Shown: positions 62,033 through 63,915, counted from the stretch's first letter. The stretch is DNA of 64,000 bases from an uncultured Clostridium sp. (GCA_902462295.1 CABQAZ010000002.1:66151-130150); one strand, 5' to 3'. A program made the numbers and translations. The notes: generated from the letters alone by a model not told the origin.

Positions 62033-63343
62033 TTACATACCTGTAACTGGTAATTTAGGAATCTCTATTACTGGCTCCTCTTCAACTACTGGTATTTCTT
62101 CTTTTGGTTCCTCTATTTTTTCTATTACTACAATTTTTCCGTTTTCTACTTCTAATATTATTTTTTCATTCATTTTTATGTCTATCTTTTTTAATTCTGA
62201 ATCTAAAACATATCCATCAGGTGCTTTTATTTCTCTTATATAATATGTTCCATGAATTAATTTATCTAATATTATTTGACCTTTTTCATTTGTTTGTGCT
62301 ACTCTAATTAATTTTTGATTTTCGTTTAAAATCTCAAATTTTGCACCTCGTAATGGTTCTTTTGTTTCTTCGTCTTGCTTTTGTATTATTATTTCTGTAT
62401 CATTTTTTTCGTATTTTTGCTGTATTTCTGTATCTACATCTTCATATGAAAATGCTGTTAATGCATAATCTTGTAATTCACCATTTGGTGCCTTTCCAAA
62501 AAATATTGGTTTTGTTTCCATTTGTGTTTGGATTTTTATTTTGAATTCTCCTGCTTCTTCTAAGCTGTTTATTGGTATTAATATTTTAAATTTTTCATCT
62601 GAATAAAATTCACTTTTTTCCTGATTTTCTAAATTAGTTATTTTGGTTTCTTCTGGTTGATTTTCTAAATTTAATATGATTTTTGAAATATTTTTATTGC
62701 TTTTTATTTTATACTCTTTTGAGATATATTGGGGTTCATTTTTATCTACTTCCCATTTTTCACTTTGTTCTATTTCTATATTTGGACTTTCAAATGTTTC
62801 TGTTGAATTTTTTGCATTTTCTAATATTGTATTCATTGCATTTATTACTCTAACTCCTGGCTCTCCTATTGCTGAATATAATTCAGTCCCAGTATTGTAT
62901 ATATAACAATATATAGATTGCTTTGTTGCTATATATGCTTCTTCTTCATTTGCTACACCTAGTTGTTCTGGCGTTTTATATGGATACCCATTTATCATTA
63001 CTCTCCATAAGCCTAAATCTTGAAGTTTGCCTTGATTTGTTACATTGTATGTTGCTATATATTCTCCAACTCCATGTAATTCTCTATTTAAACAATATAC
63101 TGGATATTCTTTTCCGTTTTCTTGATATACCGCATGTGATGTTTTTATTACTATTCCATTGTTTCTTATTATTCTATTAAAATATCCTTTTGAATATATC
63201 GTAATTTGTTCACCTTCTTCCACTGCTTGTACTGTATTTATTAATAATGCTATATTGATAATTATTATTAATAGTAGTAATAATATTATTTTTATTGCTT
63301 TTTTCAATATATTTCCTCCTCTTTTTCTATTGCTTGTATACAT
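62033..63343 (-). CDS. Secreted adhesin-like protein with N-terminal thioester-like domain (YCLNRE Cys) and C-terminal Cna B-type domain, terminating exactly at ...KLPVTGM*
   Basis: Signal/TM at the N-terminus. The C-terminal domain TNEKGQIILDKLIHGTYYIREIKAPDGYVL is a classic Cna B/SpaA-fold motif. Stop codon immediately after LPVTGM. Overlaps the sortase gene by 40 nt. Confidence 0.6.
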   Translation of the reverse strand: MYTSNRKRGGNILKKAIKIILLLLLIIIINIALLINTVQAVEEGEQITIYSKGYFNRIIRNNGIVIKTSHAVYQENGKEYPVYCLNRELHGVGEYIATYNVTNQGKLQDLGLWRVMINGYPYKTPEQLGVANEEEAYIATKQSIYCYIYNTGTELYSAIGEPGVRVINAMNTILENAKNSTETFESPNIEIEQSEKWEVDKNEPQYISKEYKIKSNKNISKIILNLENQPEETKITNLENQEKSEFYSDEKFKILIPINSLEEAGEFKIKIQTQMETKPIFFGKAPNGELQDYALTAFSYEDVDTEIQQKYEKNDTEIIIQKQDEETKEPLRGAKFEILNENQKLIRVAQTNEKGQIILDKLIHGTYYIREIKAPDGYVLDSELKKIDIKMNEKIILEVENGKIVVIEKIEEPKEEIPVVEEEPVIEIPKLPVTGM

Positions 63344-63915
63344 CTTCTATATTCTGGTTGATTTTCTACACATGTTATTAGTGTTAGTCTATTTTCTTCA
63401 GTATCTTCTAGGTATTCCCAATCTGTATCTTTTATGATTCCACATTTTTCTACTTCATATATTTTTTCAAATTTATTATGAGTATATTTTATTTCATCTC
63501 CTTCTTTTAATTGTTTTAGGTTTTGAAAGTAGTTTACTTCATATCCCCTATTATGTCCGGCTAATCCAACATTTCCTTCTTCTTTTTTTGTTTTTTCAAA
63601 ATGTCCTACATATTGATTTAGTGTTTCTTTTGTTGTTCCTTCTGATATTTCTGCTTTTAATGAGATTTTTGGTATTTCTATTTTCCATATTTCTTTATTG
63701 TCTTTTAGTGATTCATTATCTTTTATCTGTTCTGGTATTTCTGCTTTTGCTTCTTCTATTTTGTTTTCTGTATTTAAATTTATTTCTTGTATATTTTCCA
63801 TTATGTTTTCATTTTGTTGGGGTTTTATTTTATATTGATTAATAAATATTTGAAATATGATAAAAATTGTTAGTGATATAACATAAGCAATACCAGTTCT
63901 AGTAAATTTAAACAT
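63304..63915 (-). CDS. Sortase (second copy) with N-terminal TM
   Basis: LAGHN His motif, TLITC catalytic motif, conserved Arg region. RBS GAGAGGTGA. Confidence 0.8.
   Translation of the reverse strand: MFKFTRTGIAYVISLTIFIIFQIFINQYKIKPQQNENIMENIQEINLNTENKIEEAKAEIPEQIKDNESLKDNKEIWKIEIPKISLKAEISEGTTKETLNQYVGHFEKTKKEEGNVGLAGHNRGYEVNYFQNLKQLKEGDEIKYTHNKFEKIYEVEKCGIIKDTDWEYLEDTEENRLTLITCVENQPEYRRCIQAIEKEEEIY

What the first reader, a model, noticed from the sequence alone, without database searches (positions are those of the whole stretch)
62033..63915. Sortase + thioester/Cna B adhesin pair in which the substrate ends exactly at LPVTGM with no hydrophobic tail
The 436-aa protein has a signal peptide, a thioester-domain-like Cys (PVYCLNRE) and a Cna B domain. 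Its reading frame stops immediately after KLPVTGM, with no in-frame continuation in the 88 nt before the next gene. Canonical sortase substrates need a hydrophobic segment and a positively charged tail after LPXTG for membrane retention. The adjacent downstream 113-aa protein ends in ...KYKRIKGYSLSVTILFIISLIINLI, a charged stretch followed by a hydrophobic stretch. Either the sorting signal has been truncated, making the adhesin secreted or inactive, or this is a non-standard arrangement worth examining.
Basis: seen in the sequence. Interest (0 to 1): 0.55.

Follow-up and report, generated by a model that had tools for sequence, protein, structure and literature searches.

The report
Conserved tail-less sortase anchoring signal
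A surface adhesin of an uncultured gut Clostridia bacterium ends one methionine after its LPVTG sortase motif, and this tail-less ending is conserved with its own dedicated sortase across many species, so it is not a truncation but an undescribed exception to the textbook rule that sortase substrates need a membrane-spanning tail.

Summary
On the minus strand, a sortase gene (63915..63304) overlaps by TTGA the start of a thioester-domain adhesin (63307..62033). The adhesin ends KLPVTGM-TAA, and no hydrophobic tail follows in any frame.

It is not a truncation:
- 119 of the 120 closest homologues end PKLP[VI]TGM-stop.
- All 80 species-representative genomes examined end LPxTG plus one residue (mostly M). 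A sortase lies immediately upstream in 78 of them.
- Distant full-length relatives (37-48% identity) keep the same ending, although the linker before it varies freely.

The same ending, LPxTG plus one Y/F/W/M, also closes giant thioester/SpaA-repeat adhesins on conjugative elements. These too lie next to a sortase of the same clade. That clade reaches no NCBIfam class cut-off. Relatives with canonical tails sit next to an unrelated class-B-like sortase.

The 113-aa downstream gene is not part of the module.

The operon promoter lies just outside the window. It is a sigma-A type promoter with tandem Spo0A boxes.

Most likely this is a dedicated sortase acting on a minimal, non-membrane-retained sorting signal. 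The acceptor (cell wall or another protein) and the way the substrate is captured are inferred, not shown. I found no description of such a system in the literature searched.

The parts
63916..64000 (-). 5' untranslated leader of the sortase-adhesin operon. It contains an imperfect palindrome ATTTTATTCGAAGAAAT and the AGGTGA ribosome-binding site. The promoter and the Spo0A boxes lie just beyond the window end.
   Evidence: Alignment of 16 orthologous upstream regions. In the 98%-identical strain L005 the motif TGTCGAA-TGT-TGTCGAA, then TTGACA, 17 nt and TAACAT lies about 95-145 nt upstream of the sortase ATG. The window stops before it.
63304..63915 (-). Sortase gene (203 aa) of an unclassified clade, with weak class D/E-like similarity.
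   Evidence: PF04203 at 82.8 bits. All NCBIfam class models fall far below cut-off: class E 76/160, SrtD 75.5/140, class C 70/160, class D 58/165. Best PDB sequence match is 4d70, C. perfringens SrtD, at 1.5e-14. Foldseek returns only sortases, with classes A, C, D and E about equal.
63835..63891 (-). N-terminal hydrophobic membrane anchor of the sortase (residues 9-27). No AXA-type cleavage site follows it.
   Evidence: Hydrophobicity scan of 57 full-length orthologues. AF2 predicts a helix at residues 6-27.
63691..63834 (-). Polar linker of about 48 residues between the anchor and the catalytic domain (residues 28-75).
   Evidence: AF2 pLDDT is below 50 for residues 29-72. The linker median is 51 aa (range 30-76) in orthologues.
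63325..63690 (-). Sortase catalytic domain (residues 76-197). It carries His121 (LAGHNRG, 63544-63558), Cys182 (TLITC, 63370-63384) and Arg190 (YRRC, 63340-63351).
   Evidence: H121, C182 and R190 are invariant in the 23-sequence alignment A4, which spans the chromosomal and conjugative-element clades.
63304..63307 (-). TTGA overlap between the adhesin TTG start and the sortase TGA stop, implying translational coupling.
   Evidence: Sequence. The same 4-nt overlap (gap -4) occurs in several orthologous loci.
62033..63307 (-). Adhesin gene (424 aa plus stop). It is a class II thioester-domain (TIE-type) surface protein.
   Evidence: Pfam TED and SpaA hits. The AF2 model has pLDDT 86.6. Best Foldseek hits are BaTIE 6fwv (3e-29) and the EfmTIE86 thioester domain 6fwy (5e-18).
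63224..63307 (-). Sec signal peptide (residues 1-28, ...NTVQA|VEEG).
   Evidence: An N-terminal helix followed by a V-x-A type site is conserved across alignment A1. Cleavage itself is an inference.
62408..63211 (-). Class II thioester domain, head lobe plus beta-sandwich insert (residues 33-300). The candidate thioester Cys72 lies in VYCLN (63086-63100). ATKQSIY (62909-62929) is the TQxx-motif equivalent. Gln279 (62456-62476) is invariant.
   Evidence: C72 and Q279 are invariant in A1. The motif definitions and the fact that in class II the Gln comes from the sandwich insert are from PMC6194298. The choice of Q279 as the bonding Gln is an inference.
62132..62395 (-). CnaB/SpaA-type stalk domain (residues 305-392) with a putative isopeptide triad K310, E359 and N389.
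   Evidence: PF17802 at 1.5e-21. K310, E359 and N389 are invariant in A1. The bond itself was not tested.
62054..62131 (-). Acidic, proline-rich disordered linker (residues 393-418), of the wall-spanning type.
   Evidence: pLDDT is below 50 for residues 396-411. Length and sequence vary freely among relatives, from a few residues to about 75.
62036..62053 (-). Minimal sorting signal LPVTGM (residues 419-424) at the free C-terminus.
   Evidence: L419, P420 and G423 are invariant in A1. PKLP[VI]TGM closes 119 of 120 homologues. LPxTG plus one residue closes 80 of 80 species loci.
62033..62035 (-). TAA stop codon directly after Met424.
   Evidence: Stops in 81 loci are TAA in 64 and TAG in 17. 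In 67 of 81 loci no frame continues into a hydrophobic segment. In the other 14, seven run into the next gene's signal peptide (in no preferred frame) and seven are short, weakly hydrophobic out-of-frame stretches.
61945..62032 (-). 88-nt intergenic spacer. It encodes no tail and contains the ribosome-binding site of the unrelated 113-aa gene.

Best explanation
This is an intact, conserved two-gene operon.

The first gene encodes a membrane-tethered sortase of a distinct, so far unclassified clade. The second, translationally coupled gene encodes a Sec-secreted adhesin. The adhesin consists of a class II thioester domain, one CnaB-type stalk domain and an acidic, proline-rich linker. Its sorting signal is reduced to LPxTG plus a single hydrophobic residue at the free C-terminus.

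Proposed mechanism:
1. The adhesin is fully translocated and is not held in the membrane.
2. The cognate sortase has a catalytic domain on a flexible tether of about 50 residues. It captures the free LPVTGM end and cleaves between Thr and Gly, releasing the dipeptide Gly-Met.
3. It then transfers the Thr carboxyl to an amine acceptor. The most likely acceptor is the peptidoglycan stem peptide or lipid II. The thioester domain would then be displayed outward on the wall.

The operon is transcribed from a sigma-A type promoter with tandem Spo0A boxes, so it is probably switched on at entry into stationary phase or sporulation.

Shown here:
- the conservation of the architecture;
- its exclusive pairing with one sortase clade;
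- the domain structure;
- the promoter motifs.

Inferred, not shown:
- cleavage by the sortase;
- the identity of the acceptor;
- how the substrate is captured without a membrane stop-transfer segment;
- Spo0A control.
For: Conservation:
- 119 of 120 homologues at 67-98% identity end PKLP[VI]TGM-stop.
- Full-length relatives at 37-48% identity end LP.[TSA]G[MWFL]-stop, while the preceding linker varies from a few residues to about 75.
- 80 of 80 species-representative genomes end LPxTG plus one residue. A same-strand sortase lies immediately upstream in 78.
- No frameshift or read-through tail exists.

Generality:
- 67 of the 150 best 50%-identity cluster representatives are tail-less. The last residue is Y in 33, M in 13, F in 10 and W in 4.
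- These include 1000-4600-aa adhesins on conjugative elements.

Enzyme-substrate pairing:
- Sortases next to tail-less substrates are mutually related, at 39-62% identity and E values of 7e-19 to about 1e-67. They share the ending ...ITLITCVE[ND]xPxxR..Q[AG]xE.
- Sortases next to canonical-tail relatives are class-B-like and show no BLAST similarity to them.
- In 45 metagenome loci of at least 8 kb holding a sortase of this clade, 32 have a giant ORF ending LP[KRQ]TG[YFWS]-stop downstream. None has a true canonical sorting signal.

Enzyme integrity: His121, Cys182 and Arg190 are invariant, and the fold is that of a sortase.

Substrate design is that of a wall-anchored TIE protein, with BaTIE as the best structural match and a disordered Pro/Glu linker before the motif.

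Feasibility: S. aureus SrtA can attach exogenous, soluble LPETG peptides lacking the hydrophobic domain to the wall, but needs 0.5-1 mM substrate (PMC4723074). This fits the need for a specialised enzyme.

Promoter:
- The element TGTCG-N7-TGTCGAAC...TTGACA-N17-TAACAT is conserved in the 16 orthologous upstream regions aligned.
- A forward TGTCGAA lies within 300 nt upstream in 58 of 73 species loci, against a background of 0.043 per 360 nt.
- TGTCGAA is the Spo0A core box, also bound by clostridial Spo0A (PMC3485338).
- As a positive control, 2 of the 5 boxes in the window lie just upstream of spoIIAA.
Against: There is no experimental evidence of any kind. All genomes of the chromosomal clade are uncultured MAGs.

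Classical deletion work on protein A (Schneewind 1992-93, from my own knowledge; the tripartite rule is restated in PMC8225981) showed that removing the hydrophobic segment or the charged tail leads to secretion. Wall anchoring without them therefore needs a capture mechanism that I can only guess at.

The acceptor is unknown. In the conjugative-element clade the sortases have classical cleavable signal peptides and no membrane segment. That argues against lipid II as a universal acceptor for the clade.

The sortase AF2 model is of low confidence (pLDDT 58), so no substrate pocket could be examined.

The pairing test against canonical-tail relatives rests on only two loci.

The promoter lies outside the window and was read from orthologues.
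Confidence: 0.6

Rival explanations
1. The sortase ligates the tail-less adhesin to another protein rather than to peptidoglycan. The partner could be a lysine of a second copy (a pilus-like polymer) or a membrane- or wall-bound base protein.
For: In the conjugative-element relatives, a bitopic 410-430-aa membrane protein gene overlaps the start of the sortase gene. The sortase itself looks secreted. This fits a protein acceptor better than lipid II. The sortase scores about as well against class C (70 bits) as against classes D and E. Pilins are the next-best structural matches of the stalk.
Against: The window operon and its 78 orthologues contain only the sortase and the adhesin. There is no shaft or basal pilin and no bitopic partner. 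The adhesin has an N-terminal thioester domain, as in tip or stand-alone adhesins. No pilin-type YPKN motif was seen. The mature N-terminus is not conserved, so head-to-tail ligation is unlikely.
Confidence: 0.15
2. A sporulation-compartment model. The operon is induced by Spo0A, and the adhesin is secreted into the closed intermembrane space around the forespore. No membrane retention is needed there, and the sortase attaches it to germ-cell-wall or cortex peptidoglycan. This would resemble the class D sortase SrtC with BasH and BasI in Bacillus anthracis.
For: Tandem Spo0A boxes abut the -35 element and are conserved across the clade. The nearest characterised sortases include class D enzymes linked to sporulation (PMC8225981). 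The neighbourhood in this species carries genes with the domains of spoIVFA/spoIVFB and of the spoIIA operon, and spoIID.
Against: The same sortase clade and the same tail-less ending occur on conjugative elements, which act in vegetative cells. The sporulation neighbours are not kept in the more distant species. The promoter is sigma-A type, not a compartment-specific sigma promoter. A host-binding thioester adhesin buried under the spore coat makes little functional sense.
Confidence: 0.12
3. The adhesin is simply a secreted or non-covalently bound protein, and LPVTGM is not processed. The neighbouring sortase serves other substrates, and the motif is conserved for another reason.
For: There is no direct evidence of cleavage. 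Another class II thioester adhesin, TIEpLS20, functions without any sorting signal and independently of sortases (PMC8092201).
Against: L, P and G of the motif are invariant next to a freely varying linker. The genes are translationally coupled. The ending co-occurs strictly with one sortase clade in two very different genomic settings. No other LPxTG-type ORF was found in about 0.98 Mb of these loci.
Confidence: 0.06
4. The gene is truncated by a nonsense or frameshift mutation or by a sequencing error. Alternatively, the missing tail is supplied in trans by the 113-aa neighbour.
For: Only the departure from the textbook tripartite signal, and the superficially tail-like C-terminus of the 113-aa protein.
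Against: The identical ending occurs in 119 of 120 homologues, in 80 of 80 species and in distant relatives. No frame continues into a tail. The 113-aa gene is found in only 22 of 80 loci, at variable distance, and its topology is reversed.
Confidence: 0.02

Closest known systems
Canonical LPXTG cell wall sorting signal with a housekeeping class A sortase (S. aureus protein A / SrtA)
   Same: It shares the N-terminal Sec signal peptide, the C-terminal LPxTG pentapeptide preceded by a Pro-rich wall-spanning linker, and a membrane-anchored sortase with a His-Cys-Arg triad.
   Different: The signal here stops one residue after Gly. It has no hydrophobic stop-transfer segment and no positively charged tail. 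The sortase is encoded next to, and translationally coupled with, its single substrate. It does not reach the class A model cut-off or any other class cut-off.
BaTIE (Bacillus anthracis BA5258, PDB 6FWV) and other class II thioester-domain TIE proteins
   Same: It is the best structural match (Foldseek 3e-29). Both have a class II thioester domain with a beta-sandwich insert, followed by CnaB-type stalk domain(s), a disordered linker and an LPxTG-type motif.
   Different: BaTIE has three CnaB domains and a full LPATG plus transmembrane sorting signal handled by SrtA (PMC8092201, PMC6194298). The window protein has one CnaB domain and no tail.
Class D sortases (C. perfringens SrtD, PDB 4D70; B. 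anthracis SrtC with BasH and BasI)
   Same: They are the closest solved sortase by sequence (1.5e-14) and fold, and a small enzyme with a single N-terminal anchor. Both have a possible link to sporulation or stationary phase (Spo0A boxes here; sporulation-specific anchoring in Bacillus).
   Different: Scores are far below the class D and SrtD model cut-offs (58/165 and 75/140). The motif is LPxTG-X-COOH rather than LPxTA[ST] plus a tail. The clade has its own C-terminal signature, ITLITCVENxPxYRRCxQAxE.
TIEpLS20 (p34), the class II thioester adhesin of Bacillus subtilis plasmid pLS20
   Same: It is a class II thioester adhesin lacking a canonical sorting signal. Its relatives are encoded on conjugative elements and are needed for efficient mating in liquid (PMC8092201).
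   Different: TIEpLS20 has no LPXTG motif at all, its plasmid has no sortase, and its function is independent of sortases. The proteins described here keep LPxTG and always sit next to a sortase.
Engineered 'sortagging' substrates (LPETG-G/X tags) and exogenous LPETG peptides incorporated into staphylococcal walls
   Same: Both use a soluble substrate with LPXTG plus a very short leaving group, processed without membrane insertion.
   Different: Those are artificial and inefficient, needing 0.5-1 mM substrate with SrtA (PMC4723074). Here the arrangement is natural, conserved and served by its own enzyme clade.

Membership tests
Sortase superfamily (PF04203 / TIGR01076) | The profile HMM scores above its curated cut-off. 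| tested here: met
   PF04203 scores 82.8 bits against a cut-off of 26.6. TIGR01076 scores 72.2 against 39.35.
Sortase superfamily (PF04203 / TIGR01076) | A catalytic His-Cys-Arg triad with a TLxTC motif. | tested here: met
   H121 (LAGHNRG), C182 (TLITC) and R190 are invariant in the 23-sequence alignment A4.
Sortase superfamily (PF04203 / TIGR01076) | Transpeptidase activity on an LPxTG-type substrate. | not testable with these tools
   This needs an enzyme assay with the LPVTGM peptide.
Class D sortase | The NCBIfam class D or SrtD model scores above its cut-off. | tested here: not met
   NF033746 scores 58.4 against 165. NF058671 scores 75.5 against 140.
Class D sortase | An LPxTA[ST]-type substrate motif followed by a hydrophobic tail. 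| tested here: not met
   The substrate ends LPVTGM-stop.
Class A, C, E and F sortases | The respective NCBIfam class model scores above its cut-off. | tested here: not met
   Class E scores 76/160, class C 70/160 and class F 16/166. There is no class A hit. The conjugative-element member is also below every cut-off.
Canonical LPXTG cell wall sorting signal (TIGR01167 / PF00746) | An LPXTG pentapeptide near the C-terminus. | tested here: met
   LPVTG is at residues 419-423. L, P and G are invariant.
Canonical LPXTG cell wall sorting signal (TIGR01167 / PF00746) | A hydrophobic membrane-spanning segment after the motif. | tested here: not met
   One residue (Met) and then TAA follow the motif. 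No frame gives a hydrophobic continuation. Neither PF00746 nor TIGR01167 hits.
Canonical LPXTG cell wall sorting signal (TIGR01167 / PF00746) | A positively charged C-terminal tail. | tested here: not met
   It is absent here, and absent in 80 of 80 species orthologues.
TIE proteins with a class II thioester domain | A thioester-domain profile hit and the Cys motif [YFL]C-hydrophobic-hydrophilic. | tested here: met
   PF08341 scores 41.1 against 22. The motif is Y-C72-L-N, and C72 is invariant. The motif definition is from PMC6194298.
TIE proteins with a class II thioester domain | The class II fold, a head lobe plus an inserted beta-sandwich. | tested here: met
   The AF2 model has pLDDT 86.6. 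Foldseek gives 6fwv at 3e-29 and 6fwy at 5e-18, both class II.
TIE proteins with a class II thioester domain | An actual Cys-Gln thioester bond and a CnaB isopeptide bond. | not testable with these tools
   The candidate residues C72 and Q279, and K310, E359 and N389, are invariant. Confirmation needs mass spectrometry or a crystal structure.
Sortase-assembled pilus locus | At least one shaft pilin with a pilin motif, plus a class C sortase in the operon. | tested here: not met
   The operon holds only a sortase and one thioester adhesin in 78 of 80 loci. The class C model is below cut-off.
Spo0A regulon | Consensus 0A boxes (TGTCGAA) positioned at the promoter. | tested here: met
   Tandem boxes 3 bp apart abut the -35 element in L005 and its orthologues. 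A forward box is present in 58 of 73 species loci, against a background of 0.043. The site lies outside the window.
Spo0A regulon | Spo0A binding and Spo0A-dependent transcription. | not testable with these tools
   This needs an EMSA or expression data.

The most novel reading that the evidence does not exclude
The window pair may be the chromosomal representative of a previously unrecognised sortase class. This class would work on fully secreted substrates that are not retained in the membrane, by recognising a free C-terminal LPxTG plus one hydrophobic residue.

In its conjugative-element branch even the enzyme appears to be a secreted, soluble protein. If so, sorting is uncoupled from the membrane and possibly from lipid II. 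Such enzymes would be natural counterparts of laboratory sortagging. They would display the mating and colonisation adhesins of a large share of gut Clostridia.
Probability: 0.4. Interest if true: 0.85.

Novelty: new variant of a known kind. Interest (0 to 1): 0.72.

Why it matters
**The textbook rule.** Since the early 1990s the rule has been that a sortase substrate needs three parts: LPXTG, a hydrophobic stop-transfer segment and a charged tail. Here is a natural, strongly conserved system that dispenses with two of them. It occurs in at least 80 species-level genomes that I checked (408 candidates). It also occurs on very abundant gut conjugative elements, whose sortase clusters hold thousands of member sequences.

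**Annotation.** The anchor models (PF00746, TIGR01167) did not detect this ending here, and predictors that require the tail would miss it too. Such adhesins are therefore likely to be mis-filed as secreted proteins. The surface proteome of gut Clostridia would then be underestimated.

**Mechanism.** It raises a clean, testable question: how does a sortase capture a substrate that is not held in the membrane, and what does it attach it to?

**Application.** Enzymes that evolved to act on a minimal soluble LPxTG-X tag could make better protein ligases than S. aureus SrtA.

**Biology.** The thioester adhesins involved probably mediate covalent attachment to host material, to food particles or to mating partners. 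The Spo0A boxes suggest that deployment is tied to the decision to sporulate.

Tried and rejected
- **Frameshift or read-through tail.** I translated 150 nt downstream in three frames in 81 loci. The apparent hits were either the N-terminal signal peptide of the next gene, in no preferred frame, or short weakly hydrophobic stretches. Rejected.
- **The 113-aa protein as a split tail or module member.** BLAST and then an HMM found it in only 22-28 of 80 loci, at variable distance. It has no Pfam or NCBIfam family. Rejected.
- **The 'RR' doublet after the catalytic Cys as a binder of the substrate carboxylate.** The second Arg is Leu in the conjugative-element clade. Dropped.
- **Plasmid database (PLSDB) searches.** tblastn with the element sortase gave no match. 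With the window sortase it gave only about 35%-identical class A and D sortases. No cultured or annotated example was found.
- **Cluster look-ups for organism names.** They returned no names.
- **Literature.** Seven full-text searches, including the exact strings LPKTGY, LPRTGY, LPVTGM, LPKTGF, LPKTGM and LPKTGW and phrases about lacking the hydrophobic or transmembrane segment, found no description of natural tail-less LPXTG substrates. Subscription-only papers were not searched.
- **AF2 of the sortase.** The accepted run gave only pLDDT 58, too weak to inspect a pocket.
- **Consensus scans inside 61400-64000.** No excess of promoter-like sites and no terminator. The real promoter was found only by aligning orthologues.
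- **NCBIfam on the accessory small proteins and the element partner protein.** No hits.
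Full report
**1. What is in the window**

Three ORFs lie head to tail on the minus strand at the right-hand end of the window:
- a 203-aa sortase (63915..63304);
- a thioester/CnaB adhesin whose longest ORF is 436 aa (63343..62033);
- a 113-aa ORF (61944..61603), 88 nt further on.

The adhesin reads ...EIPKLPVTGM and is followed directly by TAA. The three reading frames after the motif give *NYINNKLKYCIK*, CKII* and YVKLYK*, so no hydrophobic segment is available by read-through or frameshift. 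The window is 27.4% G+C and contains no other LPxTG-type C-terminus.

Pfam finds a thioester domain (PF08341) and a SpaA/CnaB-type domain (PF17802) in the adhesin, and PF04203 in the sortase. Neither Pfam nor NCBIfam reports a Gram-positive anchor model, which is expected because there is no tail.

The true start of the adhesin is almost certainly the TTG at 63307. It has a GGAGGA Shine-Dalgarno 7 nt upstream and forms TTGA with the sortase stop codon. It yields the 424 aa of the 98%-identical database protein P0001.

**2. It is not a truncation**

Of the 120 closest homologues (67-98% identity, 401-445 aa, many independent assemblies), 119 end PKLP[VI]TGM-stop. The one exception is a fragment.

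An exhaustive profile-free search of 1.84 billion cluster representatives recovered full-length relatives at 37-48% identity. These also end LP.[TSA]G followed by a single M, W, F or L. In the alignment the L, P and G of the motif are invariant. The linker in front of it varies from a few residues to about 75 and has no sequence conservation.

A scan of one genome per GTDB species found 408 candidate loci. In the best 80, all from uncultured gut Clostridia of humans, rabbits and goats, every adhesin ORF ends LPxTG plus one residue plus stop. Among the 72 ORFs whose match reached the C-terminus, the last residue is M in 69, R in 2 and Y in 1. A sortase lies immediately upstream on the same strand in 78 loci, often with the same 4-nt overlap.

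Stop codons are TAA (64) or TAG (17). In 67 of 81 loci no frame continues into anything hydrophobic. In the other 14, seven run into the signal peptide of the next gene, in no preferred frame, and seven are short weakly hydrophobic out-of-frame stretches.

**3. The 113-aa neighbour is unrelated**

It has no family assignment. Even an HMM built from its homologues finds it in only 22 of 80 loci, at 65-3361 nt from the adhesin. In the more distant species the downstream gene is a ~440-aa membrane protein of another kind. In this species and its near relatives the 113-aa gene travels with the M23 and M50 peptidase genes, which have the domains of spoIVFA and spoIVFB. Its charged-then-hydrophobic C-terminus without a signal peptide is that of a tail-anchored cytoplasmic protein, the opposite polarity to a sorting-signal tail.

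**4. What the adhesin is**

An AlphaFold2 model (mean pLDDT 86.6) shows:
- a signal-peptide helix;
- a large N-terminal domain (about residues 33-300);
- one beta-sandwich domain (305-392);
- a disordered C-terminus from residue 396.

Foldseek places it next to the Bacillus anthracis TIE protein BaTIE (6fwv, 3e-29) and the Enterococcus faecium TIE86 thioester domain (6fwy, 5e-18). Both define the class II thioester fold, in which a beta-sandwich inserted into the head lobe supplies the bond-forming Gln (PMC6194298).

Cys72 (VYCLN, matching the [YFL]C motif) and Gln279 are invariant. So are Lys310, Glu359 and Asn389 of the CnaB-type domain, the usual isopeptide triad.

The protein is therefore a small class II TIE adhesin. 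It has a thioester warhead, one stalk domain, an acidic Pro-rich linker of the kind that spans the wall in LPXTG proteins, and then LPVTGM. Everything except the missing tail is the design of a wall-anchored adhesin.

**5. The tail-less ending is a class, tied to one sortase clade**

Among the 150 best cluster representatives, 67 end LPxTG plus 1-3 residues, almost always one. The last residue is Y in 33, M in 13, F in 10 and W in 4. Another 43 have a canonical motif plus hydrophobic tail.

The tail-less group includes adhesins of 1000-4600 aa with many SpaA repeats. Two that I located sit in conjugative elements:
- one with ParA/ParB, RepA_N, a coupling protein, TrbL and a VirB4-like ATPase;
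- one with a CHAP hydrolase, DUF3852 and TrbL.

Each has a sortase a gene or two upstream.

These element sortases are 39-41% identical to the window sortase over the catalytic domain (E 8e-35 and 7e-19). They share its distinctive ending ...NxITLITCVE[ND]xPxxR..Q[AG]xE. By contrast, two giant relatives with canonical tails are followed by a 243-aa class-B-like sortase that shows no BLAST similarity to this clade.

I scanned metagenome contigs with an alignment of the clade. Of the 45 loci that were at least 8 kb long, 32 carried a giant ORF ending LP[KRQ]TG[YFWS]-stop 1-2 kb downstream. None carried a genuine canonical sorting signal. In 0.98 Mb of chromosomal-clade loci the only LPxTG-type ORFs were the 81 tail-less adhesins.

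The clade reaches the generic sortase cut-off but none of the class cut-offs: class E 76/160, SrtD 75/140, class C 70/160, class D 58/165. Its closest solved relative is C. perfringens SrtD (4d70). His121, Cys182 and Arg190 are invariant.

**6. Enzyme topology**

The window sortase and its orthologues have an uncleavable-looking N-terminal hydrophobic segment followed by a polar, predicted-disordered linker. The linker has a median of 51 residues and a range of 30-76.

The element sortases are different. About 45 distinct sequences start with textbook cleavable signal peptides (...ASA|ADYSF...ALA|ADYNF...AYA|LDSDLSY). A conserved mature N-terminal motif follows, then a 150-220-residue low-complexity region. 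They have no other hydrophobic segment. They look like secreted enzymes.

In two element loci examined, a bitopic 410-430-aa membrane protein gene lies just upstream of the sortase gene, overlapping its start in one of them. This suggests that the clade as a whole works away from the membrane surface. That would make sense of substrates that are not held in the membrane.

**7. Regulation**

Consensus scans inside the window were uninformative. Aligning the upstream regions of 16 orthologues revealed a conserved element: TGTCG-N7-TGTCGAACGATTTTTC-TTGACA-N17-(TG)TTAACAT, about 125 nt before the sortase ATG.

In the 98%-identical strain it reads TGTCGAA-TGT-TGTCGAA, two perfect Spo0A core boxes 3 bp apart, directly upstream of a consensus -35. 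TGTCGAA is the 0A box, and clostridial Spo0A binds it (PMC3485338). From memory, the 3-bp tandem spacing is that of the abrB site used for the Spo0A-DNA crystal structure.

A forward box lies within 300 nt upstream of the sortase in 58 of 73 species loci, against 0.043 expected. As a positive control, two of the five boxes in the window lie just upstream of spoIIAA.

The promoter itself lies beyond position 64000, so only the leader is in the window. I infer a sigma-A promoter activated by Spo0A~P, meaning expression at the transition to stationary phase or sporulation.

**8. Most likely mechanism**

Shown here:
- an intact sortase and an intact class II TIE adhesin;
- translational coupling;
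- co-inheritance across a whole order-level clade;
- an invariant LPxTG-hydrophobic-COOH ending that occurs only next to this sortase clade.

Inferred:
- The sortase cleaves T|G, releasing Gly-Met, and transfers the adhesin to an amine.
- The most likely acceptor is the wall stem peptide. The window enzyme is membrane-tethered, and the substrate has a wall-spanning linker.
- Capture without a stop-transfer segment may rely on several things: the enzyme sitting at the site where the C-terminus leaves the translocon, its long tether, a hydrophobic S2' contact with the last residue, and the wall as a diffusion barrier.

That soluble LPETG peptides can be built into staphylococcal walls by SrtA, but only at 0.5-1 mM (PMC4723074), shows two things. 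The chemistry is possible, and a specialised enzyme would be needed for it to be efficient.

Rivals are a protein acceptor or polymer (0.15), a forespore-compartment model (0.12), no processing at all (0.06), and truncation or a split signal (0.02).

**9. Comparison with the known, and novelty**

The parts are known: a sortase, an LPxTG motif and a class II TIE adhesin. The combination is not.

Reviews up to 2021-2026 state the tripartite signal and six sortase classes (PMC8225981; abstracts). The one well-studied class II thioester adhesin without a sorting signal, TIEpLS20, has no LPXTG motif and is sortase-independent (PMC8092201).

Seven full-text searches, including the exact terminal strings, found no description of natural substrates ending at LPxTG-X. 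I cannot exclude a description in literature that was not searchable.

I file it as a new variant of a known kind. It is a sortase system with a minimal sorting signal that is not retained in the membrane, and with its own enzyme clade.

**10. Limits**

- All evidence is comparative.
- The chromosomal clade has no cultured member among the loci seen.
- The contrast with canonical-tail relatives rests on two loci.
- The sortase model was too poor (pLDDT 58) to examine the active site.
- The secreted nature of the element sortases and the Spo0A control are predictions from sequence.

Noticed in passing
L002 11238-12445 (also L001, L003, L004, L009-L018, L020-L023, L025, L026, L028, L029); absent from the window: In many related species, one to three small genes sit directly after the adhesin stop codon. 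One is a ~198-aa protein whose N-terminus (...LIVLLFTGAGGYTYARY...) resembles, from memory, SipW/TasA-camelysin-type signal peptides. In L002 the others are a 130-aa protein and a 47-aa protein. None has a Pfam or NCBIfam hit. They may be accessory parts of the same surface system.
   Followed up: partly
L092-L171, L006 6215-7162, L089 5119-6210: Sortases of the conjugative-element branch carry classical cleavable signal peptides (AXA sites). A conserved mature N-terminal motif (DY.F.T..YYGST.YE..Y) and a long low-complexity region follow. They have no membrane segment, so they are predicted to be secreted sortases.
   Followed up: partly
L006 4993-6225; L089 3776-5068: A bitopic 410-430-aa protein is encoded just upstream of the element sortase gene, overlapping its start in L006. 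It has a signal peptide, a ~290-aa ectodomain, one transmembrane segment and a ~100-aa cytoplasmic domain, and no family hit. It may be an acceptor or docking partner.
   Followed up: no
L090 19434-23518 (runs off the locus): An ORF of more than 2600 aa fuses RNA polymerase Rpb2-type and Rpb1-type domains. It lies next to a DNA ligase, a class-B-like sortase and two canonical-tail thioester adhesins. This may be a phage or another mobile element.
   Followed up: no
window 55613-55619 (+) and 55632-55638 (-): Two perfect Spo0A boxes (TGTCGAA) lie in the intergenic region just upstream of the spoIIAA-spoIIAB-sigF operon (spoIIAA ORF 55536..55153). They served as a positive control for the box search.
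   Followed up: yes
window 63916-64000 (leader of the sortase gene): There is an imperfect palindrome, ATTTTATTCGAAGAAAT. In most orthologues it is the perfect TTTTTTTCGAAAAAAA. It lies between the promoter and the ribosome-binding site, and could be an operator or an RNA hairpin.
   Followed up: no
window 61603-61944 (-): The conserved 113-aa tail-anchored protein (MESSDMKNMVVLKNLPSNMVEEAIIIFKE...) has no family assignment. In this species and its near relatives it lies directly upstream of the M23/M50 peptidase pair, which has the domains of spoIVFA and spoIVFB. It may be an uncharacterised sporulation protein.
   Followed up: partly
L005 5845-8008 and L001-L004 (upstream of the window end): The sortase operon lies downstream of mraZ, rsmH and a small FtsL-sized gene, but the usual continuation of the division/cell-wall cluster is missing. 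An HD-domain gene and the adhesin operon lie between these genes and the sporulation genes.
   Followed up: no
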